Shown here in pieces: positions 11,118 through 20,000 of a stretch of DNA of 20,000 nt. Position numbers and translations under genes: made by a program. This DNA is from an uncultured virus (IMG/VR IMGVR_UViG_3300022660_000083) (lineage: Duplodnaviria; Heunggongvirae; Uroviricota; Caudoviricetes): the IMG/VR virus record IMGVR_UViG_3300022660_000083. One strand, 5' to 3'. How positions within the stretch are numbered: the first letter of the stretch is position 1; every line of letters starts with the position of its first letter. The notes under the pieces are model-generated. The model did no database searches. It was not told the DNA's origin and saw only the letters and a list, made by a program, of their open reading frames with translations.

Positions 11118-11149
11118 TGCAAAAATTCTCTGCATATATGGCTAATGGG

Positions 11150-11178
11150 TAGAAAAATTCATGTTTTTATGGTATAAT
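11150..11178 (+). promoter_or_regulatory. SigA-type promoter of accessory block
   Basis: TAGAAA (11150-11155), 17-bp spacer, extended -10 TGgTATAAT (11170-11178). Confidence 0.75.
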
Positions 11179-11208
11179 AGTTAAAACATCAAAGAAAAAG
11201 GATAAGTT

Positions 11209-11679
11209 ATGGATAATCTTGTATGTTCTTTTTTTGGTCACAGGGACGTTGAAATCACACCTGAATTGACTGAAAGAACCACAAAGGAAATAAAAAACGC
11301 CATTGTCGAAGGTTGTCGAATTTTCTACTTTGGTGGCTATAGTGATTTTGATAGCTTGTGCTATTCCATTGTTACACAAATCAAAGAGCAAAGACCTGAG
11401 TTAGAGCTGCAAAGAATATATTGTGTCTCTCAAGAAAGATACCTACGTAAAAAAGTGAGGTATTTCAACAGGAGCGATTATGATGATGTCATTTATCTAA
11501 TGCCTTCTTTCGAGGGTTGGTATAAAAGTATTTATTACCGAAACTGTGCCATGATAGACAACAGTGACTACATTATTTTCTATTGCGAAGAAAATCCAAA
11601 TTCAGGTGCTTATAAAGCTTATAAATACGCTCTAAAGCATAAGAAATCAATAGCAAATTTATTTAGAAAGTTAGATTAA
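11209..11679 (+). CDS. SLOG-superfamily protein (YspA/DUF1273-like)
   Basis: CSFFGHR, FYFGGYSDFD, RNCAMIDNSDYII and SGAYKAYKYA match the GHR...GG...RN..M.D...SG pattern of YspA-like SLOG proteins. Confidence 0.8.
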   Translation: MDNLVCSFFGHRDVEITPELTERTTKEIKNAIVEGCRIFYFGGYSDFDSLCYSIVTQIKEQRPELELQRIYCVSQERYLRKKVRYFNRSDYDDVIYLMPSFEGWYKSIYYRNCAMIDNSDYIIFYCEENPNSGAYKAYKYALKHKKSIANLFRKLD

Positions 11680-11696
11680 GCAGAGGAGGTGTTGCC

Positions 11697-12788
11697 ATGC
11701 CATTAAGAATAATTAGAAATGACTTGTTACAGATGGAGGTTGATGCCATTGTTAATCCTACCGATAGTAAATTATCGGGTTCGGGTAGTATTGATTTAAG
11801 AATCCATCAAGCAGGAAAAGAAGAATTAAAAAAAGAACTACTTAGCATTGGTAAATGTGACATAGGTGATGCCATATTAACTAACGCATACAATATGTCA
11901 TGCAGATATATCATTCACACAGTAGGTCCGATATGGAACGGTGATTCTAAAGCATTTAAAGTCCTTGAAAGTTGTTATAGGAATTGTTTGGAGTTGGCAA
12001 TATCACAAGACATAGAAAGCATTGCGTTCCCTTTGATAGCCACAGGTTCATTTGGGTTTCCTACAGACAAAGCTATTCAAATTGCTATCAATACCATTAA
12101 TTCGTTTTTACTTGACTACGATTTAGACGTATATTTAGTTGTTTATAACAGTGAGGCGTTTGGTATTTCCAAAAAGCTAGTAGAGGATGTTAAATCTTAC
12201 ATAGAAGACGATGTTGAAGAAGACGAAAGAATAAAGTTTATTCAAGAATTGTTATCTTACTATGAATTTAATGAAACTCCACTTGCTAAAAAAATAGTTG
12301 GAAAGATAAAAGTAAGTGATGCCATTGAAACTTCATTTAAGTGTTGTGCTCCAATGGCGGCGGATTTTTGCGAAAGTATAGAGGAAGGTAGCTTAGAGGA
12401 TCTAATTCCTGAGCTTGATAAAATTAAATGGACAAATGAGGACTCCTTTACATATAAGTTGTTCAAGATAATTGATGACAACAATCTTAAAGACTCAGAT
12501 GTATATAACGCAGCTGGTATTAGTAAAATGGTGTTCTCTAACATTAGAAAAGGCATAATTCCTAAAAAGAAAACCGTATTCCAACTTTGCTTGACTCTTC
12601 CAATAGGAATTACACAAGCTACCGATTTGTTGGCTAGTGCAGGATATACTTTCGTATTAAGCGATAAATTTGAGAAGACCATAAAGAAAATTATTGAGGC
12701 GAAAAACACGAAGAAACTTACCCGAATAGATGTCATTGATTTGATACTTTATGAGTTAGGATTACCCGTATTTAACAACGCTTATTAA
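11697..12788 (+). CDS. Macrodomain (Appr-1-p processing fold) fused to a C-terminal XRE-like HTH
   Basis: VDAIVNP, YIIHTVGPIW, LESCYRNCL and SIAFPLIATGSFGFP give the macro fold. DSDVYNAAGISKMVFSNIRKG...PKKKTVFQL...DLLASAGY is HTH-like. Confidence 0.88.
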   Translation: MPLRIIRNDLLQMEVDAIVNPTDSKLSGSGSIDLRIHQAGKEELKKELLSIGKCDIGDAILTNAYNMSCRYIIHTVGPIWNGDSKAFKVLESCYRNCLELAISQDIESIAFPLIATGSFGFPTDKAIQIAINTINSFLLDYDLDVYLVVYNSEAFGISKKLVEDVKSYIEDDVEEDERIKFIQELLSYYEFNETPLAKKIVGKIKVSDAIETSFKCCAPMAADFCESIEEGSLEDLIPELDKIKWTNEDSFTYKLFKIIDDNNLKDSDVYNAAGISKMVFSNIRKGIIPKKKTVFQLCLTLPIGITQATDLLASAGYTFVLSDKFEKTIKKIIEAKNTKKLTRIDVIDLILYELGLPVFNNAY

Positions 12789-12790
12789 AA

Positions 12791-12834
12791 GTAAATTTAG
12801 ACTTTACCATTTAATTGAAATAAAATGATATACT
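12791..12834 (+). promoter_or_regulatory. Palindromic operator-like site plus extended -10 promoter for the SIMPL-ARH operon
   Basis: GTAAA-N7-TTTAC at 12791-12807; TGaTATACT at 12826-12834; no good -35 at 17-bp spacing. Confidence 0.55.
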
Positions 12835-12867
12835 CTCCTTGTAAAACAAACGAGGAGGGTATTTTTT
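12830..12867 (+). terminator. Terminator-like hairpin that also sequesters the SIMPL RBS
   Basis: ATACTCTCCTTG (12830-12841) pairs with CGAGGAGGGTAT (12851-12862): 12 bp with two G-U pairs, followed by a T-run ending just before ATG 12868. Confidence 0.65.
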
Positions 12868-13533
12868 ATGACCAGAACAATTAAAGTAACAGGAAAAAGT
12901 AATGTCCAAGCAACCCCAGACTATACAAGAATTAGTCTTTCTATTTCAGACACGTTGGAAGAATACGATTCATGTTTGGCAAAATCCGTTGAGGATATGA
13001 ACATTATCGTAGAGTGCATCAAGGCATTTGGTTTTGAGAGAAAAGAACTAAAGACATCGGGTTTTGAAATAAATAGAAAGACCGAGGGCTACCGTGACAA
13101 AAACAATGATTGGAAATATCGTTTTATTGGGTATGAATACACGCAAAATCTCAATTTCACTTTCAAGAACGATAACCAAAGATTAGGACAAATTCTCTAT
13201 GCATTGGCTCACTTGTCTATCATCCCTGAAATCAATATCTCTTATTTTTGTAGTGATGTAGAAACAATCAAGAATCAACTGTTAGAACTTGCAATAAAAG
13301 ATGCCAAGAAAAAGGCAGAAATCTTAACAAATGCATCAGGAGTAAAGTTGTGTGAAATTATCGACATTGACTACTCTTGGATAAATGTTTCGTTTGAAAC
13401 TGATGACATGAAATTTTGCAAGCCAATGATGTTTGAAGAATGTTGTGATGCTGCTCCGTCATATAATGTTGATTTTGAACCCGATGATGTTTCGACAAGT
13501 GATAGTGTAAGAATAACATTTAGAATCGAGTAA
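12868..13533 (+). CDS. SIMPL domain protein (DUF541 / YggE-like), no signal peptide
   Basis: RTIKVTGKSNVQATPD...LELAIKDAKKKAEILTNASGVKLCEIIDI...VRITFRI pattern. Confidence 0.88.
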   Translation: MTRTIKVTGKSNVQATPDYTRISLSISDTLEEYDSCLAKSVEDMNIIVECIKAFGFERKELKTSGFEINRKTEGYRDKNNDWKYRFIGYEYTQNLNFTFKNDNQRLGQILYALAHLSIIPEINISYFCSDVETIKNQLLELAIKDAKKKAEILTNASGVKLCEIIDIDYSWINVSFETDDMKFCKPMMFEECCDAAPSYNVDFEPDDVSTSDSVRITFRIE

Positions 13534-13544
13534 AAGGTGTAAAA

Positions 13545-13808
13545 ATGGATAAAAAGAAAATCGAAGAAATAGTAACAAAAGTGGTAGCATATTTAGAAAC
13601 ATTGCCTCTAGGAACAGAAATTTCTACATGGCAAGCAACAAAAGAAGGTTATGGAATCAAAGATTTAGAAGATTGTGATTTCTTTGGAATAGATAAGCAA
13701 GTAAGAGTGGCTGCAAAAAAGGTTGGATTGAAATTGGACAGTTCAAAGTACAACAATTGTGAGGTCGGATTGCCTTTCAACATTCCGTTTGTAATAAGAA
13801 AGAAGTAG
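13545..13808 (+). CDS. Hypothetical protein (87 aa)
   Basis: AAAAGGTG RBS-like site and tight operon spacing; ends in VGLPFNIPFVIRKK; no recognisable family. Confidence 0.7.
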   Translation: MDKKKIEEIVTKVVAYLETLPLGTEISTWQATKEGYGIKDLEDCDFFGIDKQVRVAAKKVGLKLDSSKYNNCEVGLPFNIPFVIRKK

Positions 13809-13819
13809 GAGGTACACGA

Positions 13820-15403
13820 ATGATTGGTGCAATTATTGGTGATATCGTTGGCTCAAGATTTGAGTTTAACAATATAAAAACGAAGAAATTTTATTTATTT
13901 GATAAGAAATGCTCTGTGACGGATGATTCTGTTATGAGCGTGGCAGTGGCGGATATGTGTTTGAATGGTTATGTTCCAAACAATAAGAAAATGATTATTC
14001 AGACATTCAAAAAATGGGGACAAAAATATCCTTACGCAGGTTATGGTTCTCGTTTTTATCATTGGGTTTTATCGGATGAATCTATGCCATACAACTCTTG
14101 TGGTAATGGCAGTGCGATGAGGATTTCTGCCATTGGTTTCTTTGCAAACACTGCGGAGGAAGTAGAACTTTATTCAAAAGCAGTAACTGAAGTAACGCAC
14201 AACCATCCCGAAGGAATAAAAGGTGCTTATGTTACGTCTATGTGCATTTATCTTGCTAGAAAAGGTGCGTCGAAAAAAGAGATAAAAGAGTTTGTAGAAA
14301 AGTATTATGATATTGATTTTGACTATGAAACATTGAGAAGAACATATAAGCACGAGGCTGAAATTTGCCAAAATACTGTACCTCAAGCAATTTATTGTTT
14401 CTTGATTAGTAGCGGTTTTGAAGATTGTCTTAGAACTACGATTTCTATTGGTGGTGATTGCGATACTACGGCTGCTATTTCGTGTGCGATTGCAGAGGCA
14501 TATTACGGTATCCCTAGCGAAATAATCGAACAAGTTATGGAATACATACCTGATGACATGAAAGAAATCATACTGAAATTTGACCGTCAAATGCTAGAAT
14601 CCTCAATTAGTAGATATGGTAGAATTTTGAAATTTATTAAGCCATTGGAAGAGTATCCTGATAAACTTGCAAGATGGCAAGAGGGTGAAAGTAAAAAGGA
14701 TAAAGACGGTAAAATCGTTTTAACTTTGGGCTTTCCAATCTACGAGTCTGATGTTGTTGAATTTATGGAGGCAGTTCGTTCGTTCTTTGTGTATGACTAC
14801 GTCAAAGTAATTGAATCATATGGAATCAAATATGAAAATATTGATATTCACGCACTTGATTTAGCTAAGTATGATGACAAGTTGGTTTTGGCAATGCTTA
14901 CTGCAATTATTCGCTCTGATAGAGTTAACGAAGGCTTGATTATGGATATGATAAAAAATGGTTCTATCTTAAAGTTGCTTTTAAGATTGCAAGATTTTGA
15001 TGAACCATTGCTAAAAGAAGATATAATTACCAAAATTGATTATTCGTATAGTTGTTTTGGTGACTTTTCAAAGAATGAAGGTTTCGTAATCGATATTCTT
15101 TCAAAAGAAAAAGTTAGAATCGAATACAGTTCTCATAATATGGACGGTATAAAACCTGTTGTGGTTCTTGACGAGTCAGATTCCAAGACTTTGATAACCA
15201 AACTTTACAATTTGAACATTTTAGAGTGGCTAGAGGACTACGAACCAAAAGATATGATAGTTCTTGATGGCGAGTCTTGGCGAATGGAAATCGACACTTA
15301 TAATTTAGGACATATCCATAAAGGTGGAAATAACGCCTTCCCACATAATTGGCATTCGTTTAGAAACTTTAGAAGATGGATTTTAAGTAAAATGAGAGTT
15401 TGA
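13820..15403 (+). CDS. ADP-ribosylglycohydrolase (DraG/ARH family) with two additional C-terminal domains (first resembles DUF6508)
   Basis: GAIIGDIVGS, TDDS, GNGSAMR, THNHPEG and GGDCDT metal-binding motifs are intact. C-terminal LTAIIRSDRVNEGLI and WLEDY...LDGESW...GNNAFP segments. Confidence 0.92.
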   Translation: MIGAIIGDIVGSRFEFNNIKTKKFYLFDKKCSVTDDSVMSVAVADMCLNGYVPNNKKMIIQTFKKWGQKYPYAGYGSRFYHWVLSDESMPYNSCGNGSAMRISAIGFFANTAEEVELYSKAVTEVTHNHPEGIKGAYVTSMCIYLARKGASKKEIKEFVEKYYDIDFDYETLRRTYKHEAEICQNTVPQAIYCFLISSGFEDCLRTTISIGGDCDTTAAISCAIAEAYYGIPSEIIEQVMEYIPDDMKEIILKFDRQMLESSISRYGRILKFIKPLEEYPDKLARWQEGESKKDKDGKIVLTLGFPIYESDVVEFMEAVRSFFVYDYVKVIESYGIKYENIDIHALDLAKYDDKLVLAMLTAIIRSDRVNEGLIMDMIKNGSILKLLLRLQDFDEPLLKEDIITKIDYSYSCFGDFSKNEGFVIDILSKEKVRIEYSSHNMDGIKPVVVLDESDSKTLITKLYNLNILEWLEDYEPKDMIVLDGESWRMEIDTYNLGHIHKGGNNAFPHNWHSFRNFRRWILSKMRV

Positions 15404-16110: not shown

Positions 16111-16369
16111 TATTATTCGTTTCTATATGGCACTTGCACCTCTTCAAGCAATGGAACGAAAAGGTATAATCACTCACGCTGAATTTCTCAAAGCGGAGGA
16201 CTTTTTGGCTAAAAAATATTATCTAAAAAAACACAATATTTATAGGCAAAATGACTTGATAAATAATTCAAAAAGAGTGATATATATACTACCGCAAGAG
16301 GAGGTGCAAAATGATACAAAAAACGATAACGACAATAGAACCGTTACCACAGTTAGAAAGGTTGATTAG
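16100..16369 (+). CDS. SHOCT-like small protein preceding recombinases
   Basis: AAGGAGG at 16084-16090; MERKGIITHAEFLKAEDFLAKKY is SHOCT-like; 3' end overlaps the recombinase by 59 nt. Confidence 0.65.
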   Translation: MKDNIIRFYMALAPLQAMERKGIITHAEFLKAEDFLAKKYYLKKHNIYRQNDLINNSKRVIYILPQEEVQNDTKNDNDNRTVTTVRKVD

Positions 16370-17624
16370 AGTTGCTGCTTATGCAAGAGTATCAAGCGGA
16401 AAAGATGCAATGCTACATTCCTTATCGGCTCAAATCACTTACTACCAAAACTACATCGTTTCACATCAAGGTTGGGAGTTTGCAGGGGTTTACGCAGATG
16501 AGGCTTTAACGGGAACAAAGGATAACCGAGAAGAGTTCCAAAGGCTTATTCAAGATTGCAAAGACGGAAAGATAGACCTAATCATTGTTAAGGCGATTTC
16601 AAGATTTGCAAGAAACACGGCAACATTGCTTGAAACGGTAAGGTTATTAAAAAGCCTTAAAGTGAACGTCTACTTTGAAGAACAAAACCTTTACACAATG
16701 AGTGCTGAAGGCGAGATGGTGCTTACATTCCTTGCTTCATTTGCTCAAGAAGAAAGCAGATCCGTAAGTGAGAATATGAAGTGGCGTATCAGAAAGGATT
16801 TTGAACAAGGGCTTATTTGGGGTTCAAAACCTCAACTTGGATATAGGGTTGTGGATAGACGCTTAGTTCTTGTTCCTGAAGAGGTTGACCTTGTGAAAAG
16901 GATATTCAGTCTTTACTTAGACGGTTATGGTTTCCAAGCAATAGCAAACATTCTTAACGCAGAAGGCTTAACAGGTATTCACGGAGTTAGGTGGTCGAAA
17001 ATGACTGTTGACCACATTCTTAAAAACTACAATTACACAGGTGACCTGATATTGCAAAAGACTTTTAGAATTGACCACTTAAGCAAAAAGAAAAAGAAGA
17101 ACAACGGTGAGGTAGACCAATTCCTAGTTGAAAATGCACACGAACCTATCATTTCCAAAGAAGACTTTATGCGTGTCCAAGAACTTATCGAACAACGAGC
17201 AAGGTACTTTAAGACCAAGAAGAAACCTAACACAATTCACCCTTTTACAGGAATAATAAAGTGTGGGATTTGCGGTAAGGGGTTCAGACGAAAAACGCAA
17301 AAGCCTCGCATATGGTGGGCTTGCAGCACATTCAACACACAAGGTAAAGACCATTGCAGTGGCAAGTCAATTCCTGAAGAAACGCTTATTGAAGAAACAA
17401 AAAAGGTTCTTGGCGTTGAGAGTGTAACGATAGACATTATAAAGAAAAAGCTAGACCACATCGAGGCATTTGACGGCAACAAGCTAGTGTTTTATTTGAA
17501 GAACGGCAAGGTTGTAGAAACCACATGGAAAGACCGTTCAAGAAGACAAAGTTGGACACCTGAAATGAAGGAAATTGCACGTCAAAGAGCTTTAGAACAA
17601 CATCGCAGAAAGGAAGGTAAATAA
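16311..17624 (+). CDS. Large serine recombinase 1 (resolvase + recombinase + Zn ribbon)
   Basis: AAYARVSS catalytic motif, ISRFARN, AQEESRSVSEN, LGY, HEPIIS, CGICG...C...C. Confidence 0.95.
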   Translation: MIQKTITTIEPLPQLERLIRVAAYARVSSGKDAMLHSLSAQITYYQNYIVSHQGWEFAGVYADEALTGTKDNREEFQRLIQDCKDGKIDLIIVKAISRFARNTATLLETVRLLKSLKVNVYFEEQNLYTMSAEGEMVLTFLASFAQEESRSVSENMKWRIRKDFEQGLIWGSKPQLGYRVVDRRLVLVPEEVDLVKRIFSLYLDGYGFQAIANILNAEGLTGIHGVRWSKMTVDHILKNYNYTGDLILQKTFRIDHLSKKKKKNNGEVDQFLVENAHEPIISKEDFMRVQELIEQRARYFKTKKKPNTIHPFTGIIKCGICGKGFRRKTQKPRIWWACSTFNTQGKDHCSGKSIPEETLIEETKKVLGVESVTIDIIKKKLDHIEAFDGNKLVFYLKNGKVVETTWKDRSRRQSWTPEMKEIARQRALEQHRRKEGK

Positions 17625-17625
17625 T

Positions 17626-19206
17626 ATGGCAAAGGTTACAGTTATACCGTCAAAAGTTAATCCTATAACGCTAACACCGATAGGACAAGTAGTAAAGAGA
17701 AAGGTTGCTGCTTATGCTCGTGTTTCCACCGATAGCGATGAACAGTATTCTAGTTACGAAGCTCAAGTTACCTATTACACCAATTTCATAAAAGGTAAGC
17801 CGAATTGGGAGTTTGTAAAGGTATACGCAGACGAAGGCATTTCAGGAACAACCACAAAAAGACGTGACGATTTCAATGAAATGATTGAAAAGGCATTAAA
17901 CGGTGAGATAGACCTTATCATTACAAAATCAATATCCCGTTTTGCAAGAAACACCCTAGACACAATAACCTATGTTAGAAAGTTAAAAGCGGCAGGGGTT
18001 GAGGTTTATTTTGAAAAGGAAAACTTGTGGTCGCTTGACGATAAAACTGAGTTCTTGCTTACCATAATGGCATCCATAGCACAAGAAGAAAGTCGCAGTA
18101 TTTCACAAAACGTCACACTTGGCAAGAGATGGAGTATGAAGGAAGGACGAGTTAGTTTCGCTTACAAGAATTTCTTAGGATACGACAAGGTGGATGGCAA
18201 GATAGTCATTAACGAAGAACAAGCGAAAATCGTAAGACTAATTTATATGATGTTTCTTAAGGAAGGTAAAACCTGCACAGGCATTGCAGAATACTTAAAA
18301 AGCGAAGGGATACCGACACCTTCGGGAAAGTCCTGCAATTGGACGAAGAACACAGTAACATCAATTCTTACCAACGAAAAATACAAGGGTGATGCACTTC
18401 TTCAAAAGACATATACCTTTGATTACCTTGAACACAAACTCGTACCAAACAAAGGTGAGTTGCCTCAATACTATGTTGAAAATAATCACCCTGCAATTAT
18501 AGACCGAGATGTTTGGGAAATGGTGCAAACGGAAATGATGCGTAGGTCAATGCTTGGTGCTGCTTATTCAGCAAGCTCGATATTCGTTTCCAAGTTGGTG
18601 TGCGGAGACTGCGGAAGACCTTATGGTAAAAAGAAATGGCACTCTACGGACAAGTACACAAAGGAAATCTACCGTTGCAATGACAAATACAACAAGAGCC
18701 ACGCACAATGCCAAACACCAACGCTTACCGAAGAAGAAATAAAGGAAAAGTTCATCAGAGCCTACAACCTTGTGATGTGCGATAAGCAGCAAGTAATAAA
18801 CGATACTTTGGCAGTCATTGAAATGCTTATGGGAACGAACGAGCTAGACCTTGAAATTGCGGAACGCCAAGCAAGGATAGACGAGATAAGCAAAGCCGTG
18901 TCTGTGATGGTAAAAGAAAACGCAAGAACGGTTCAAGACCAAATTGAGTTCGCTAGAAGATACGATGACCTTACCAAGCAGTATGAAGAACACAAAGCAG
19001 CACTTGATAAGGCAGTAAAAGAAAAAGCCTACAAGACAGGCAAAGCAACTCAAATGAGAGCAAGTCTTGAGACTATGAAAAAGGCTGATGATTACCTTGA
19101 AGAATGGTCGGATGAAATGTGGATATTGCTTGTTGAATCGGCAACGGTTAATCGAGATAATACCATCACATTTACCTTTATTAACGGACAAGAAGTCAGA
19201 GTCTAA
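17626..19206 (+). CDS. Large serine recombinase 2 (integrase, with long coiled coil)
   Basis: AAYARVST, YADEGISG, KSISRFARN, NEKYKG, HPAII, CGDCG...C...C and a C-terminal coiled coil. Confidence 0.95.
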   Translation: MAKVTVIPSKVNPITLTPIGQVVKRKVAAYARVSTDSDEQYSSYEAQVTYYTNFIKGKPNWEFVKVYADEGISGTTTKRRDDFNEMIEKALNGEIDLIITKSISRFARNTLDTITYVRKLKAAGVEVYFEKENLWSLDDKTEFLLTIMASIAQEESRSISQNVTLGKRWSMKEGRVSFAYKNFLGYDKVDGKIVINEEQAKIVRLIYMMFLKEGKTCTGIAEYLKSEGIPTPSGKSCNWTKNTVTSILTNEKYKGDALLQKTYTFDYLEHKLVPNKGELPQYYVENNHPAIIDRDVWEMVQTEMMRRSMLGAAYSASSIFVSKLVCGDCGRPYGKKKWHSTDKYTKEIYRCNDKYNKSHAQCQTPTLTEEEIKEKFIRAYNLVMCDKQQVINDTLAVIEMLMGTNELDLEIAERQARIDEISKAVSVMVKENARTVQDQIEFARRYDDLTKQYEEHKAALDKAVKEKAYKTGKATQMRASLETMKKADDYLEEWSDEMWILLVESATVNRDNTITFTFINGQEVRV

Positions 19207-19211
19207 AAAGG

Positions 19212-19240
19212 TGGACTTTTCGGGACTTTTGTGGTAAAAT
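19212..19240 (+). promoter_or_regulatory. Strong SigA-type promoter driving candidate ncRNA
   Basis: TGGACT (19212-19217), 17-bp spacer, extended -10 TGgTAAAAT (19232-19240); GGACTTTT directly repeated at 19213 and 19223. Confidence 0.78.
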
Positions 19241-19246
19241 AATGCC

Positions 19247-19402
19247 AAGCAGTCATGAATGCTTATAGTCAAAGACTATCATCCAATCGTGAGTTTGGAT
19301 CGTGGACAGCGATAGTGCCTAGGACCACGTTAAAAGGCTAGTGCACATTTCGGTAACGGAAGCAGTTACACACCTCCTGCAAAGTCGGGAGGTTTTTCTT
19401 TT
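19247..19402 (+). ncRNA. Candidate structured small RNA (~155 nt), family not identified
   Basis: Bounded by a promoter and a terminator; almost wholly tiled by short hairpins plus a possible pseudoknot; no RBS-led ORF. Confidence 0.65.
19372..19402 (+). terminator. Intrinsic terminator
   Basis: ACCTCCTG-CAAAGT-CGGGAGGT followed by TTTTCTTTT. Confidence 0.85.
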
Positions 19403-19432
19403 GCCAATTTTCAAAACACATAGCATTATAGG

Positions 19433-19461
19433 TGGAAATATTCATAATTTTGTGGTATAAT
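19433..19461 (+). promoter_or_regulatory. SigA-type promoter
   Basis: TGGAAA (19433-19438), 17-bp spacer, TGgTATAAT (19453-19461). Confidence 0.78.
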
Positions 19462-19503
19462 AGGTTGAACGATAAATAAGCATTTGACGGAGGGGGTATT
19501 TCT

Positions 19504-19776
19504 ATGAAATCTTTTGTTTGTAGTTTGTGTCATAATGGCATACTCGGGGGAGGTTTATACCTCGATAGTCAGTCGCTTACTTACAAGACAAACAAGCTTA
19601 CAGTTGACCAAAGATATAGGAATTTGGTTTTACCGTTGCAGGAAATAAAAGAAATTTCTTGGAAGTGGATAATATTTCCCGTTGCAACAGTTGAAATGAA
19701 AAACGGTGAACTATATAAATTCATTATATTCAATAAATCACGCTTTGAAAAATGGTTTCAAGAATATTCTCACTAA
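19504..19776 (+). CDS. Small hypothetical protein, possibly bacterial PH/GRAM-like fold
   Basis: Own promoter and GGAGGGGG RBS; GxLYLDxxxLTY...LPLQEIKEI...VEMKNGELYKF beta-strand pattern with a C-terminal helix. Confidence 0.75.
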   Translation: MKSFVCSLCHNGILGGGLYLDSQSLTYKTNKLTVDQRYRNLVLPLQEIKEISWKWIIFPVATVEMKNGELYKFIIFNKSRFEKWFQEYSH

Positions 19777-19804
19777 ATACAAAGTGACAACTTCCAATTT
19801 GTAG

Positions 19805-19877
19805 GGGTGCGTACACACCCTAGCAGGGGTGCGTAAAAATACGGACAAGGGTGCGTGAATTTCCTATAAGGGTGCGT
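19805..19877 (+). repeat. Four direct GGGTGCGT repeats at 22/22/21-bp spacing
   Basis: Exact 8-mers start at 19805, 19827, 19849 and 19870. Confidence 0.92.
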
Positions 19878-19879
19878 AA

Positions 19880-19931
19880 TTGTATCAAAATAGGTAATGG
19901 CACACATTTAAGAACGTTAGGTTTGATACAA
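19880..19931. other. Candidate serine-recombinase att junction (prophage right end)
   Basis: Perfect 10-bp inverted repeat TTGTATCAAA-N32-TTTGATACAA, 52 bp in total, downstream of the recombinases and the phased repeats. Confidence 0.5.
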
Positions 19932-19948
19932 TGTATCAAGCCTTTTTT
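19919..19948 (+). terminator. Terminator-like hairpin overlapping the att candidate
   Basis: AGGTTTGATAC-AAT-GTATCAAGCCT followed by TTTTT. Confidence 0.6.
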
Positions 19949-20000
19949 CATGCTTTAATAGGGGTTCGAGTCTCCTATGTATTGTGTATTAGATATGATT

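What the first reader, a model, noticed from the sequence alone, without database searches (positions are those of the whole stretch)
19212..19402. Stand-alone structured small RNA immediately downstream of the serine recombinases
Seen: a near-consensus promoter begins 6 bp after the recombinase stop, and ~155 nt follow before a terminator. Hairpins: AAGCA/TGCTT (19247-19264), ATAGTC/GACTAT (19265-19279), ATCCAA/TTGGAT (19281-19300), CGTGG/CCACG (19301-19329) and GTAAC/GTTAC (19353-19369). The CGTGG/CCACG loop GCCT (19317-19320) can pair with AGGC (19335-19338) after a TTAAA linker, forming an H-type pseudoknot. Alternative pairings ACTATC/GATAGT and GTGCCTAG/CTAGTGCAC suggest two conformers. 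Inference: a trans-acting RNA (antitoxin-like, anti-defence decoy, ribozyme or recombination regulator). I cannot assign it to a family.
Basis: partly seen in the sequence, partly recalled or inferred. Interest (0 to 1): 0.75.

Follow-up and report, generated by a model that had tools for sequence, protein, structure and literature searches.

The report
New pseudoknotted small RNA in prophages
The stretch after the two recombinase genes is a real, separately transcribed, roughly 150-base folded RNA gene of a temperate phage, kept in shape by evolution in about fifty related sequences and matching no catalogued RNA family, but what it does is still unknown.

Summary
Window 19247-19402 (+) is a small RNA gene with an extended -10 promoter (19212-19240) and an intrinsic terminator (19372-19402). 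It has a 5' hairpin, two lineage-specific hairpins, an H-type pseudoknot and a GGAAGCA-loop hairpin.

I found 52 homologues: the window, 6 viral contigs and 45 metagenome contigs. On their alignment, 99.0% of cells pair. 16 of 22 pairs carry changes on both sides, and 0 of 500 shuffles reach this.

The pseudoknot is real, but its second stem is GUGCCUAG:CUAG(U)GCAC. The 28-codon ORF is not conserved.

No Rfam family matches. The pistol and SAM-II models fail.

The gene lies in the cargo zone at the right end of a siphovirus-like prophage, about 500 nt from a 54-bp att site beside the host tmRNA terminator. A serine recombinase is the adjacent upstream gene in only 15 of 52 loci, so that link looks positional.

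Best reading (inferred): a stand-alone RNA, made in lysogens, that acts through its conserved fold by binding a protein or ligand, possibly as a dimer. The rivals are a cis leader for downstream cargo, a ribozyme and an antisense RNA.

It is a new RNA class of unknown function, of moderate interest.

The parts
19212..19240 (+). Promoter of the RNA: -35 TGGACT, 17-nt spacer, extended -10 (TG-n-TAAAAT)
   Evidence: One search gives 9 of 12 consensus matches, with TG. It is a 33-nt paralogue of the promoter at 19430-19462 (D3). A third copy lies at 11145-11180. A -10-like hexamer sits at the right distance in 25 of 38 distinct homologues with full flanks, and 19 of those have TG (strict regex).
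19247..19264 (+). P1: 5'-terminal hairpin AAGCA / loop GUCAUGAA / UGCUU. The loop holds the 6-nt palindrome UCAUGA.
   Evidence: On alignment A5, 100% of cells pair and 3 of 4 counted pairs change on both sides. The loop holds a perfect 6-nt palindrome (UCAUGA, UCUAGA or AUGCAU) in 29 of 34 distinct sequences.
19265..19279 (+). P2a hairpin ATAGTC-AAA-GACTAT, found in the window-type subgroup only
   Evidence: In 15 distinct window-type rows, 14-15 of 15 cells pair at each of the 6 pairs. The pair at columns 26/36 is seen as A-U, G-U and G-C.
19281..19300 (+). P2b hairpin ATCCA / loop / TGGAT (5 bp). Other subgroups carry a single P2 hairpin with loop UAAG..(U/C)CGU instead.
Evidence: 14-15 of 15 cells pair at 5 pairs. 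P2 of the other subgroups can be read.
19301..19346 (+). H-type pseudoknot core. S1 is CGUGG 19301-05 with CCACG 19325-29. L1 is 19306-14. S2 is GUGCCUAG 19315-22 with CUAG 19338-41 and GCAC 19343-46 (U19342 bulged). L2 is GA 19323-24. L3 is UUAAAAGG 19330-37.
   Evidence: In S1, 100% of cells pair and 3 of 5 pairs change on both sides. S1 was not part of the search model's structure. In S2, 98.1% of cells pair and 5 of 8 pairs change on both sides. L027, L153 and the L005/L061/L062 subgroup were found independently of the core pattern and also show compensatory changes.
19353..19369 (+). P3 hairpin GUAAC / loop GGAAGCA / GUUAC
   Evidence: 5 of 5 pairs change on both sides and 98.8% of cells pair.
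19372..19402 (+). Intrinsic terminator ACCUCCUG-CAAAGU-CGGGAGGU followed by a U-run
   Evidence: One search finds 8 pairs, 5 of them G-C. A hairpin plus T-run follows the RNA in 30 of 38 distinct homologues by a crude rule. By eye, homologues that the rule missed also have one, for example L016.
16311..19206 (+). Context: two tandem large serine recombinases (16311-17624 and 17626-19206)
   Evidence: Pfam finds Resolvase, Recombinase and Zn_ribbon_recom in both.
19430..19776 (+). Context: a second promoter (19433-19461) and a 90-aa ORF (19504-19776) of no known family
   Evidence: The ORF is covered by contigs of all four RNA libraries laid.
19805..19932 (.). Context: four GGGTGCGT iterons (19805, 19827, 19849, 19870), then a 54-bp att-like site at 19879-19932. 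The site has 11-nt perfect inverted ends and is centred on CA at 19905/19906. Host flank follows.
   Evidence: D4, I4. Related elements share sequence up to ...CACACA and diverge after it. In five other loci the flank is the spacer and terminator that follow the tmRNA gene.

Best explanation
Window 19247-19402 is a gene for a stand-alone structured small RNA of about 150 nt, carried as cargo by temperate siphovirus-like phages and their remnants in small-genome gut Bacillota. MAGs that hold related recombinases are mostly labelled Acholeplasmataceae or Mollicutes.

Shown:
- It has its own extended -10 promoter, with the 5' hairpin starting at the expected transcription start, and its own strong terminator.
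- Its fold is P1, variable P2, an H-type pseudoknot, P3 and the terminator. Compensatory changes maintain this fold.
- It does not code for a conserved peptide.
- It lies in the variable cargo zone between the lysis genes and the right attachment site, beside genes typical of lysogenic conversion and defence.

Inferred:
- It is made in the lysogen from the same type of promoter as the neighbouring cargo genes.
- It acts in trans through its three-dimensional fold. The pseudoknot loops and the P3 loop are nearly invariant while the stems vary freely. That is the pattern of an RNA that binds a protein or small ligand (decoy, sponge or antitoxin-like), not of an antisense RNA.
- The self-complementary P1 loop suggests that two copies pair loop to loop.
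- Leaky termination may also feed downstream cargo genes that have no promoter of their own.
For: Anatomy and statistics
- Searches give the anatomy and fold statistics.
- (D3) shows that the promoter is a paralogue of the next gene's promoter.

Homologues
- 7 of 45 sources hit with model R1, 3 of them training sequences.
- 45 of 46 metagenome loci found by a core pattern are true homologues.
- 52 hits at E <= 1e-3 were aligned as A5.

Covariation
- 99.0% of cells pair, against 82.7% in shuffles. 16 of 22 pairs change on both sides. The covariation score is 0.418 against 0.123, and 0 of 500 shuffles reach it. Slid controls pair 15-45%.
- G-U pairs in P1, S1 and P3 fit only the + strand.

No peptide
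- The ORF that starts in P1 runs 4-28 codons in different frames.

Stand-alone rather than leader
- The next gene is on the opposite strand in 6 of 52 loci, and downstream genes are heterogeneous.
- In the window the next gene has its own promoter.
- In window-type islands only iterons and the att site follow the RNA.

Fold-dependent action
- The 48-nt core is about 95% identical between phages whose recombinases are 53-59% identical.
- The P1, P2 and P3 stems differ between those phages.

Dimer hint
- Three different 6-nt palindromes occupy the P1 loop in 29 of 34 distinct sequences and in 3 of 3 of the distant subgroup.

Presence in RNA libraries
- Contigs over 19228-19397 in run X21 and 19313-19347 in run X20.
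Against: - No transcript ends were mapped. The RNA-library evidence is contigs only, and DNA carry-over is possible.
- No binding partner or ligand is identified.
- In the 20 loci of one subgroup an ASCH-like gene starts about 20-25 nt after the terminator with no promoter between. That fits a cis leader.
- Seven window-type copies in tmRNA-adjacent islands lack a -10 at a workable distance.
- A palindromic P1 at the transcription start could also be a DNA operator.
- The 46 metagenome loci were found with a pattern that fixes about 19 core bases, so core conservation is overstated in A5.
- A5 was fitted to a model containing P1, S2 and P3.
Confidence: 0.5

Rival explanations
1. It is a cis-acting 5' leader. 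The promoter, folded RNA and terminator form a gate that sets, or conditionally opens, transcription into the downstream cargo or defence genes. The mechanism would be attenuation by a bound protein or ligand, or processive antitermination.
For: - In 20 of 52 loci an ASCH-like gene follows directly, then GmrSD, DUF3800 or other cargo, all on the same strand.
- In L013 the start codon lies about 20 nt after the T-run, with an RBS but no promoter.
- In L153 the RNA precedes an XRE-HsdM pair.
- One RNA-library contig runs 87 nt past the terminator (record 8).
Against: - Downstream genes have no common function, and in 6 of 52 loci they are on the opposite strand.
- In window-type islands nothing but iterons and the att site follows.
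- In the window the next gene has its own promoter.
- I found no conserved alternative pairing between the terminator and the folded part by inspecting the sequences.
Confidence: 0.25
2. It is an antisense small RNA that pairs through a loop with a host or phage mRNA.
For: - It is a stand-alone unit with single-stranded conserved loops.
- The P1 3' side (19258-19266) has 9-nt perfect complementarity to the 5' UTR of the next gene at 19476-19484 (I10).
Against: - Duplex energies with 24 translation-start regions of the window reach -33.4 kcal/mol at best. The background over 315 windows is -26.0 +/- 5.3 with a minimum of -40.3.
- The 9-nt match is one of seven such 8-9-nt matches in 851 nt.
- That target gene is absent in the closest relatives L129 and L139.
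- Conservation is concentrated in a pseudoknot, not in an open seed.
Confidence: 0.1
3. It is a self-cleaving ribozyme on a pistol-like scaffold: a hairpin whose loop forms a pseudoknot with a downstream strand, followed by a second hairpin.
For: - S1, S2 and P3 have the same order as pistol's P1, pseudoknot and P3.
- Pistol ribozymes are reported mainly from Firmicutes and phage-related contexts (PMC4604425, passages read).
Against: - The Pistol model RF02679 finds nothing in the record at E <= 10.
- There is no counterpart of pistol P2, and so none of the 2-nt cleavage junction between P3 and P2.
- The pseudoknot is 8 bp with a 9-nt L1.
- It is an independent transcription unit, whereas ribozymes are usually embedded in longer transcripts.
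Confidence: 0.07
4. The conservation is at the DNA level (an operator, recombinase site or recombination hot spot) and the RNA has no function of its own.
For: - P1 is a near-perfect 18-bp DNA palindrome at the transcription start.
- The element sits near the att site and flanks variable cargo.
Against: - G-U pairs and strand-specific covariation appear in four helices.
- The real att-like site is 500 nt away.
- A pseudoknot topology has no meaning in duplex DNA.
Confidence: 0.03

Closest known systems
Orphan phage-associated structured RNA motifs found by comparative genomics (the class that includes skipping-rope, ROOL and GOLLD, and the unnamed candidates of PMC10690425 and PMC8040213)
   Same: It is covariation-supported, lies in prophage or phage DNA of Bacillota, and has no known function. 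The possible self-association through a palindromic loop recalls recent reports that ROOL and GOLLD form homo-oligomers (seen only in the search listing and abstracts of 10.1101/2024.12.08.627333 and PMC12990946, and in a passage of PMC12191101).
   Different: It is much smaller (about 150 nt) and has a different fold. No Rfam 15 model matches. I could not check the large alignment files of the two catalogues, so it may already be listed there without a name.
Pistol self-cleaving ribozyme (Rfam RF02679)
   Same: A hairpin whose loop pairs with a downstream strand to give an H-type pseudoknot with an A-rich linker, followed by another hairpin. Phage or Firmicutes context (PMC4604425).
   Different: The covariance model gives no match. 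There is no P2 and no P3-P2 junction. The pseudoknot stem is longer and L1 is long. Cleavage is untested.
Phage lambda-type short promoter-proximal transcripts that end at a strong terminator (recalled from general knowledge, not from a call)
   Same: A promoter, a short structured RNA and an intrinsic terminator, with genes beyond that can only be reached by read-through.
   Different: It is not placed before the late operon. No antiterminator gene was identified. The downstream genes are variable cargo.
Type III toxin-antitoxin RNA antitoxins (ToxI-like) and the abiF-motif RNA RCd22 (10.1101/2025.04.15.648962, abstract read)
   Same: A promoter, a pseudoknotted or structured RNA and a terminator, followed by a protein gene in a phage or defence context. 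The RNA neutralises a protein by direct binding.
   Different: There are no tandem repeats. There is no conserved downstream toxin: the neighbours are heterogeneous and the ASCH-like neighbour is not a known toxin family. No abiF-motif hit in Rfam.
H-type pseudoknot riboswitch aptamers (SAM-II long-loop, Rfam RF01726)
   Same: A compact H-type pseudoknot with an A-rich third loop. One homologue (L017) aligns weakly to it (14.9 bits, E about 1).
   Different: That score is far below the gathering score of 44. The window's RNA is not hit at all. In the records of L016, L027, L028 and L005 the weak hits lie elsewhere or are absent. There is no methionine/SAM gene context and no expression platform.

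Membership tests
Any Rfam 15 family | Covariance-model score at or above the family's gathering score | tested here: not met
   There are 0 matches in the whole window and 0 in 12 related loci totalling 73 kb. At E <= 10 the only hits are terminator look-alikes and chance matches.
Pistol ribozyme (RF02679) | Match to the family model | tested here: not met
   There are 0 matches at E <= 10 in the 20.5-kb record, with 1 candidate scored.
Pistol ribozyme (RF02679) | P1 hairpin whose loop forms a pseudoknot with a downstream strand (PMC4604425) | tested here: met
   S1 and S2 form such a pseudoknot and both covary. This is an architectural likeness only.
Pistol ribozyme (RF02679) | P2 helix that encloses the pseudoknot strand and P3, with a strictly 2-nt junction (usually GU) between P3 and P2 as the cleavage site (PMC4604425) | tested here: not met
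   No conserved pairing exists between L3 (19330-37) and the bases after P3 across subgroups (inspection), so no such junction exists.
Pistol ribozyme (RF02679) | Mg2+-dependent self-cleavage | not testable with these tools
   Needs an in vitro transcription and cleavage assay.
SAM-II long-loop riboswitch (RF01726) | Match to the family model in the members of this RNA class | tested here: not met
   L017 scores 14.9 bits against a cut-off of 44. The window's RNA is not hit. In 4 other records the hits are elsewhere or absent.
Riboswitch (generic) | A coherent set of regulated downstream genes, and an expression platform that competes with the aptamer | tested here: not met
   Downstream genes are heterogeneous and lie on the opposite strand in 6 of 52 loci. 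No conserved anti-terminator pairing was seen.
Type III toxin-antitoxin RNA antitoxin | Tandem direct repeats of the antitoxin unit | tested here: not met
   Tandem Repeats Finder finds 0 arrays in 19150-20000 at minimum score 30.
Type III toxin-antitoxin RNA antitoxin | A conserved endoribonuclease toxin gene directly downstream | tested here: not met
   Neighbours vary. The window's 90-aa ORF and the ASCH-like protein have no toxin-family hit.
Type I toxin-antitoxin (antisense RNA plus small hydrophobic peptide) | A conserved small ORF overlapping or opposite the RNA | tested here: not met
   The ORFs of 28-39 aa in 19207-19503 are not hydrophobic. The sense ORF is not conserved.
Stand-alone bacterial or phage small RNA gene | Own promoter, own intrinsic terminator and no conserved coding frame | tested here: met
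   The transcript itself was not mapped. There are only contigs in RNA libraries.

The most novel reading that the evidence does not exclude
It is a new class of phage-borne RNA that works as an RNA-only device. Two copies would join through the self-complementary loop of the 5' hairpin. The invariant pseudoknot faces would then capture a host or rival-phage protein, or a small signalling molecule. That would give the lysogen, or the phage, protection without any protein partner encoded next to it. The gene sits among defence and counter-defence cargo: macro domain, ADP-ribosylglycohydrolase and SLOG in the window, and GmrSD, Fic and type I R-M in relatives.
Probability: 0.15. Interest if true: 0.8.

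Novelty: new variant of a known kind. Interest (0 to 1): 0.5.

Why it matters
Phage and prophage cargo regions are known mainly for protein-coding defence and conversion genes. This would be a compact, strongly conserved RNA cargo with a defined pseudoknot fold, and it is small enough for direct structural and biochemical work. If it binds a host or phage factor, it adds an RNA player to phage-host conflict in uncultured small-genome gut Bacillota. If it gates downstream cargo, it is a new leader type for defence operons. In either case it is a ready candidate for a new Rfam family. The model can already be built from 34 distinct sequences plus a distant subgroup.

Tried and rejected
- **Phage and plasmid records.** blastn 'distant' of 19207-19500 gave no match in either collection.
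- **Exact 26-mer in viral contigs.** 0 hits.
- **First loose pattern in viral contigs.** 12 loci, of which only 2 were real.
- **P2-loop pattern in viral contigs.** It returned only the 5 contigs already known.
- **R1 on genome loci.** Model R1 on 47 genome loci with recombinase relatives found 0 convincing hits; two hits at E 1.2 and 5.4 were taken as noise.
- **Broader model R2.** It raised the L005/L006/L061/L062 subgroup only to E 0.18-0.8. I count that subgroup as related on architecture and compensatory changes, not on score.
- **SAM-II long-loop lead.** Rejected as chance.
- **Pistol lead.** Rejected as membership.
- **tmRNA mimicry.** No sequence likeness by eye to the tmRNA of L126.
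- **tRNA-like fragment near 19958-19978.** ARAGORN finds no gene.
- **Antisense target scan in the window.** Nothing above background.
- **Peptide reading.** Rejected.
- **RNA libraries.** No contig of the four runs covers 18900-19209, the recombinase 3' end.
- **Small shares of words in runs X16-X24**. Not used for habitat claims.
- **Literature.** No paper holds the core sequence strings. The searches turned up no description of this RNA.
- **Catalogue supplements.** The core strings do not occur in the searchable supplements of PMC10690425 (6 files searched; files 1, 2 and 4 not searched) or PMC8040213 (8 files searched; files 7 and 8 not searched).
- **Earlier findings of this scan.** Nothing to show.
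Full report
**Setting.**
- The window is bases 466-20465 of a 20,492-base IMG/VR virus record that CheckV rates about 40% complete.
- It encodes capsid, connector, tail, tape-measure-like and tail-fibre proteins and a holin-like protein.
- A cargo block follows: a SLOG/YpsA-like protein, a macro domain, SIMPL and an ADP-ribosylglycohydrolase-DUF6508 fusion.
- Next come an HTH protein, a SHOCT protein and two large serine recombinases at 16311-17624 and 17626-19206.
- The finding lies directly after the second recombinase.

**The observation.**
- The promoter scan finds TGGACT-17-TAAAAT at 19212-19240 (9 of 12 consensus matches, preceded by TG). It also finds a terminator at 19372-19393 followed by a T-run.
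- In 18900-20000 there are 4 terminator-like sites against 0.5 +/- 0.7 expected, and 9 promoter-like sites against 2.9 +/- 1.8 expected.
- The promoter region 19209-19241 is a 73% copy of 19430-19462, the promoter of the next ORF (D3). A third related copy precedes the cargo gene at 11209.
- As RNA, the + strand of 19241-19402 folds to -48 kcal/mol (z = -2.66; 2 of 200 shuffles fold as well). The - strand gives z = -1.41.

**Homologues.**
- The second recombinase found 44 related viral loci. blastn of the intergenic region against them found a 48-base core, 92-96% identical, in L017 and L028. Their recombinases are only 59% and 53% identical to the window's.
- A covariance model built from these three (R1) then found L027 and the L016/L020/L013 group. 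That makes 7 of 45 sources, 3 of them training sequences.
- A degenerate core pattern scanned over metagenome contigs gave 46 loci, of which 45 are true homologues and 1 (L131) is a chance match.
- R1 aligned 52 hits at E <= 1e-3, 34 of them distinct, as alignment A5.
- A more distant subgroup (L005/L006, L061, L062) has the same order of elements. It scores only 18-21 bits with the broader model R2.
- One further member (L153, 55 bits) turned up in 1 of 151 genomes sampled from the class of one host MAG.
- Some viral and metagenome loci are the same contig held in two collections (for example L017 and L117, both 28,431 bases). The loci are therefore not all independent.

**Structure.**
- On A5 I counted four helices: P1, S1, S2 and P3. 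99.0% of 727 cells form standard pairs, against 82.7% in shuffles.
- 16 of 22 pairs have changes on both sides. The covariation score is 0.418 against 0.123, and 0 of 500 shuffles reach any of the measures. With partners slid by 1-3 columns, pairing falls to 15-45%.
- S1 (CGUGG/CCACG) was not part of the model's structure, so its support does not come from fitting. It changes to CCUGG/CCAGG in L027 and to CGAGU/ACUCG in the L016 group.
- S2 (GUGCCUAG with CUAG-U-GCAC) changes to GUGCCUGG/CCAG-C-GCAC, GUGCCUU/AAG-U-GCAC, GUAUCC/GGAUAC (L027) and GUGCCAUU/AAUG-U-GCAC (L153).
- S1 and S2 interleave, so together they form one H-type pseudoknot. L1 is 9 nt, L2 is 2 nt, and L3 is the A-rich 8-nt UUAAAAGG.
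- In the distant subgroup, compensatory changes occur in P2 (2 pairs), S1 (1 pair) and P3 (1 pair). There is also one wobble and one mismatch (read by eye on three sequences).
- The two hairpins 19265-19279 and 19281-19300 are specific to the window-type subgroup and are kept there in 14-15 of 15 sequences per pair. Other subgroups have a single P2 hairpin with a conserved loop, UAAG..(U/C)CGU.
- G-U pairs in P1, S1 and P3 would be A-C mismatches on the other strand. That fixes the + strand as the RNA.

**Not a peptide.** The ORF that starts at the ATG in the P1 loop has 28 codons only in the window. In the other 33 distinct sequences it has 4-23 codons, in different frames and with unrelated peptides.

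**Known families.**
- Rfam 15 gives nothing at gathering scores in the window or in 12 related loci.
- At E <= 10 it gives only terminator look-alikes and chance hits.
- One homologue aligns weakly to the SAM-II long-loop model (14.9 bits against a cut-off of 44). That model does not hit the window's RNA. In the other four records it gives only scattered low hits elsewhere, or none. I treat this lead as chance.
- The order hairpin, pseudoknot, hairpin recalls the pistol ribozyme. Per PMC4604425 (passages read), pistol's defining features are P1, P2, P3, a pseudoknot from the P1 loop, and a strictly 2-nt P3-P2 junction that is cleaved.
- The Pistol model finds nothing at E <= 10, and I see no P2 counterpart. 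The RNA is therefore not a pistol ribozyme. Self-cleavage remains untested.
- There are no tandem repeats and no conserved small antisense ORF. Type III and type I antitoxin readings therefore fail their defining features.

**Where the gene sits.**
- Gene neighbourhoods of the 52 loci were built from ORFs clustered by blastp, with representatives scanned against Pfam.
- The RNA is always co-oriented with most of its neighbours. A serine recombinase is the adjacent upstream gene in 15 of 52 loci and lies within 4.5 kb in 22 of 52.
- In 4 loci (L027, L028, L111, L123) the RNA lies upstream of the HTH-SHOCT-recombinase block, directly after the holin-like gene in L028 and L111.
- In 13 or more window-type loci the upstream gene encodes Sel1/TPR repeats and no recombinase is in range.
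- Downstream, 20 of 52 loci have a roughly 120-aa ASCH-like protein (Pfam ASCH, E = 0.0016, below the cut-off). GmrSD, DUF3800 or other genes follow it.
- Other downstream neighbours include an aminoglycoside-nucleotidyltransferase-like gene, a Dam methylase region, and convergent genes. The next gene is on the opposite strand in 6 of 52 loci.
- In L153 the RNA precedes an XRE regulator and an HsdM gene.
- Of 91 loci chosen only for a related recombinase, 7 carry the RNA at E <= 3e-5, and 4 more carry the distant form.
- The link with recombinases therefore looks positional. Both lie in the variable zone near the prophage end.

**The prophage end.**
- After the RNA come a second promoter and a 90-aa ORF, then four GGGTGCGT iterons.
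- A 54-bp site at 19879-19932 follows, with 11-base ends that are perfect inverted repeats (D4 and I4).
- Related elements share sequence up to ...CACACA, the centre of that site, and diverge after it.
- In L128, L133 and L143 the flank is the spacer and terminator that follow the tmRNA gene in L126 and L119.
- I read 19879-19932 as the right attachment site of a prophage integrated just beyond the 3' end of ssrA, with crossover near 19905/19906. The RNA gene is then inside the element, about 500 nt from its end. In window-type islands it is the last gene before the iterons.

**Expression.**
- Of 24 public runs that hold part of 18900-19800, 6 are RNA libraries.
- Laid on the stretch, contigs of one library cover 19228-19336 and 19313-19397. 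A contig of another covers 19313-19347. All four libraries cover the 90-aa ORF.
- These are contigs at 90-99% likeness, so they show presence in RNA libraries, not transcript ends.

**How it most likely works.**
- Shown: a separate transcription unit, a conserved pseudoknotted fold, no coding capacity, and a location among lysogenic-conversion and defence cargo.
- Inferred: it is made in the lysogen from the same promoter type as the neighbouring cargo.
- Inferred: its stems drift while the pseudoknot loops, the linker after S2 and the P3 loop (GGAANCA) hardly change. It therefore probably acts as a folded binding surface for a protein or small ligand, not by antisense pairing.
- The P1 loop carries a perfect 6-nt palindrome in 29 of 34 distinct sequences. 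Three different palindromes occur: UCAUGA (11), UCUAGA (10) and AUGCAU (8). The remaining 5 are L143 and L116 (each one substitution away from UCUAGA), L107 and L145 (loop AAUACAUG, with only the 4-nt palindrome CAUG inside the loop), and L140, which lacks P1. The distant subgroup has AUGCAU in 3 of 3.
- That pattern fits loop-loop dimerisation. A DNA operator at the transcription start is an alternative.
- The strongest rival is a cis role. In the ASCH-linked subgroup the downstream gene has no promoter of its own and must be fed by read-through.
- I put about 0.5 on the stand-alone, fold-dependent RNA, 0.25 on a leader or gate, 0.1 on antisense, 0.07 on a ribozyme and 0.03 on a DNA-only element.

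**Caveats.**
- The metagenome members were found with a pattern that fixes about 19 core bases. Core conservation in A5 is therefore inflated, and variation in S1 and S2 is limited to what the pattern allows. L027, L153 and the distant subgroup were found by other routes and still covary.
- A5 was fitted to a model that holds P1, S2 and P3.
- The promoter and terminator counts come from a crude script. It found 25 of 38 with a -10, 19 of 38 with TG and 30 of 38 with a terminator. Seven window-type island copies lack a -10 at workable spacing.
- Host names come from the titles of MAG records with related recombinases, not from genomes that hold the RNA.

**Novelty.**
- I found no description of this RNA. 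There is no Rfam family. No paper in the held library contains its core strings, and the searches turned up nothing relevant.
- Two large catalogues of unnamed candidate structured RNAs, from phages (PMC10690425) and human microbiomes (PMC8040213), may contain it. Their searchable supplements do not hold the core strings, but their largest files could not be searched.
- I rate it a new class within the known kind 'orphan phage-borne structured RNAs'.

Noticed in passing
window 19805-19932: Four GGGTGCGT iterons, spaced 21-22 bp apart, abut a 54-bp att-like site with 11-nt perfect inverted ends (ATTGTATCAAA / TTTGATACAAT). The site is centred on CA at 19905/19906. Beyond it lies host flank that resembles the spacer and terminator after the tmRNA gene. 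Related elements carry other iteron words (GGTGTGCA, CTGTACGCA, AGTCTAAA) in the same place. These may be accessory sites for the HTH and SHOCT proteins encoded before the recombinases.
   Followed up: partly
L009:3870-4932 (also L004, L007, L010, L011, L021, L023, L029, L031): In other phages with related recombinases, the slot after the recombinase holds a different element. It is a conserved structured leader of about 250 nt (fold z = -2.26) with a promoter and terminator, followed by an RNase III gene (Pfam Ribonuclease_3 plus dsrm). The leader has no Rfam match. It may be an autoregulatory RNase III substrate.
   Followed up: partly
window 11209-15403: The cargo block between the holin-like gene and the recombinase module encodes a SLOG/YpsA-like protein, a macro-domain protein, SIMPL and an ADP-ribosylglycohydrolase fused to DUF6508. 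This set suggests handling of ADP-ribose or NAD-derived signals, possibly as counter-defence.
   Followed up: no
window 11145-11180, 19209-19241 and 19430-19462: Three copies of one promoter type (…TTTTnTGGTA(A/T)AAT…) stand before a cargo gene, the RNA and the 90-aa ORF. This suggests common regulation of the cargo.
   Followed up: partly
window 19504-19776: The 90-aa ORF of no known family (no Pfam or PHROG hit) is covered by contigs of all four metatranscriptome runs laid, at higher depth than the RNA region.
   Followed up: no
L119, L126, L128 (tmRNA-adjacent islands): A roughly 3.5-kb island lies directly after the tmRNA gene and its terminator. It holds Sel1/TPR genes, the RNA, iterons and an att-like end, and has no recombinase within range. 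It looks like a remnant or satellite that has kept the RNA. In L128 a second element end precedes the tmRNA terminator, which suggests tandem integration.
   Followed up: partly
L016:4790-4830 versus L013:4790-4830: At the start of the ASCH-like gene, L016 has an in-frame TGA where L013 has GGG (…ATGATGCATTGA… versus …ATGATGTATGGG…). Either the start lies further downstream in L016, or TGA is read as a residue in that host. I did not examine this.
   Followed up: no
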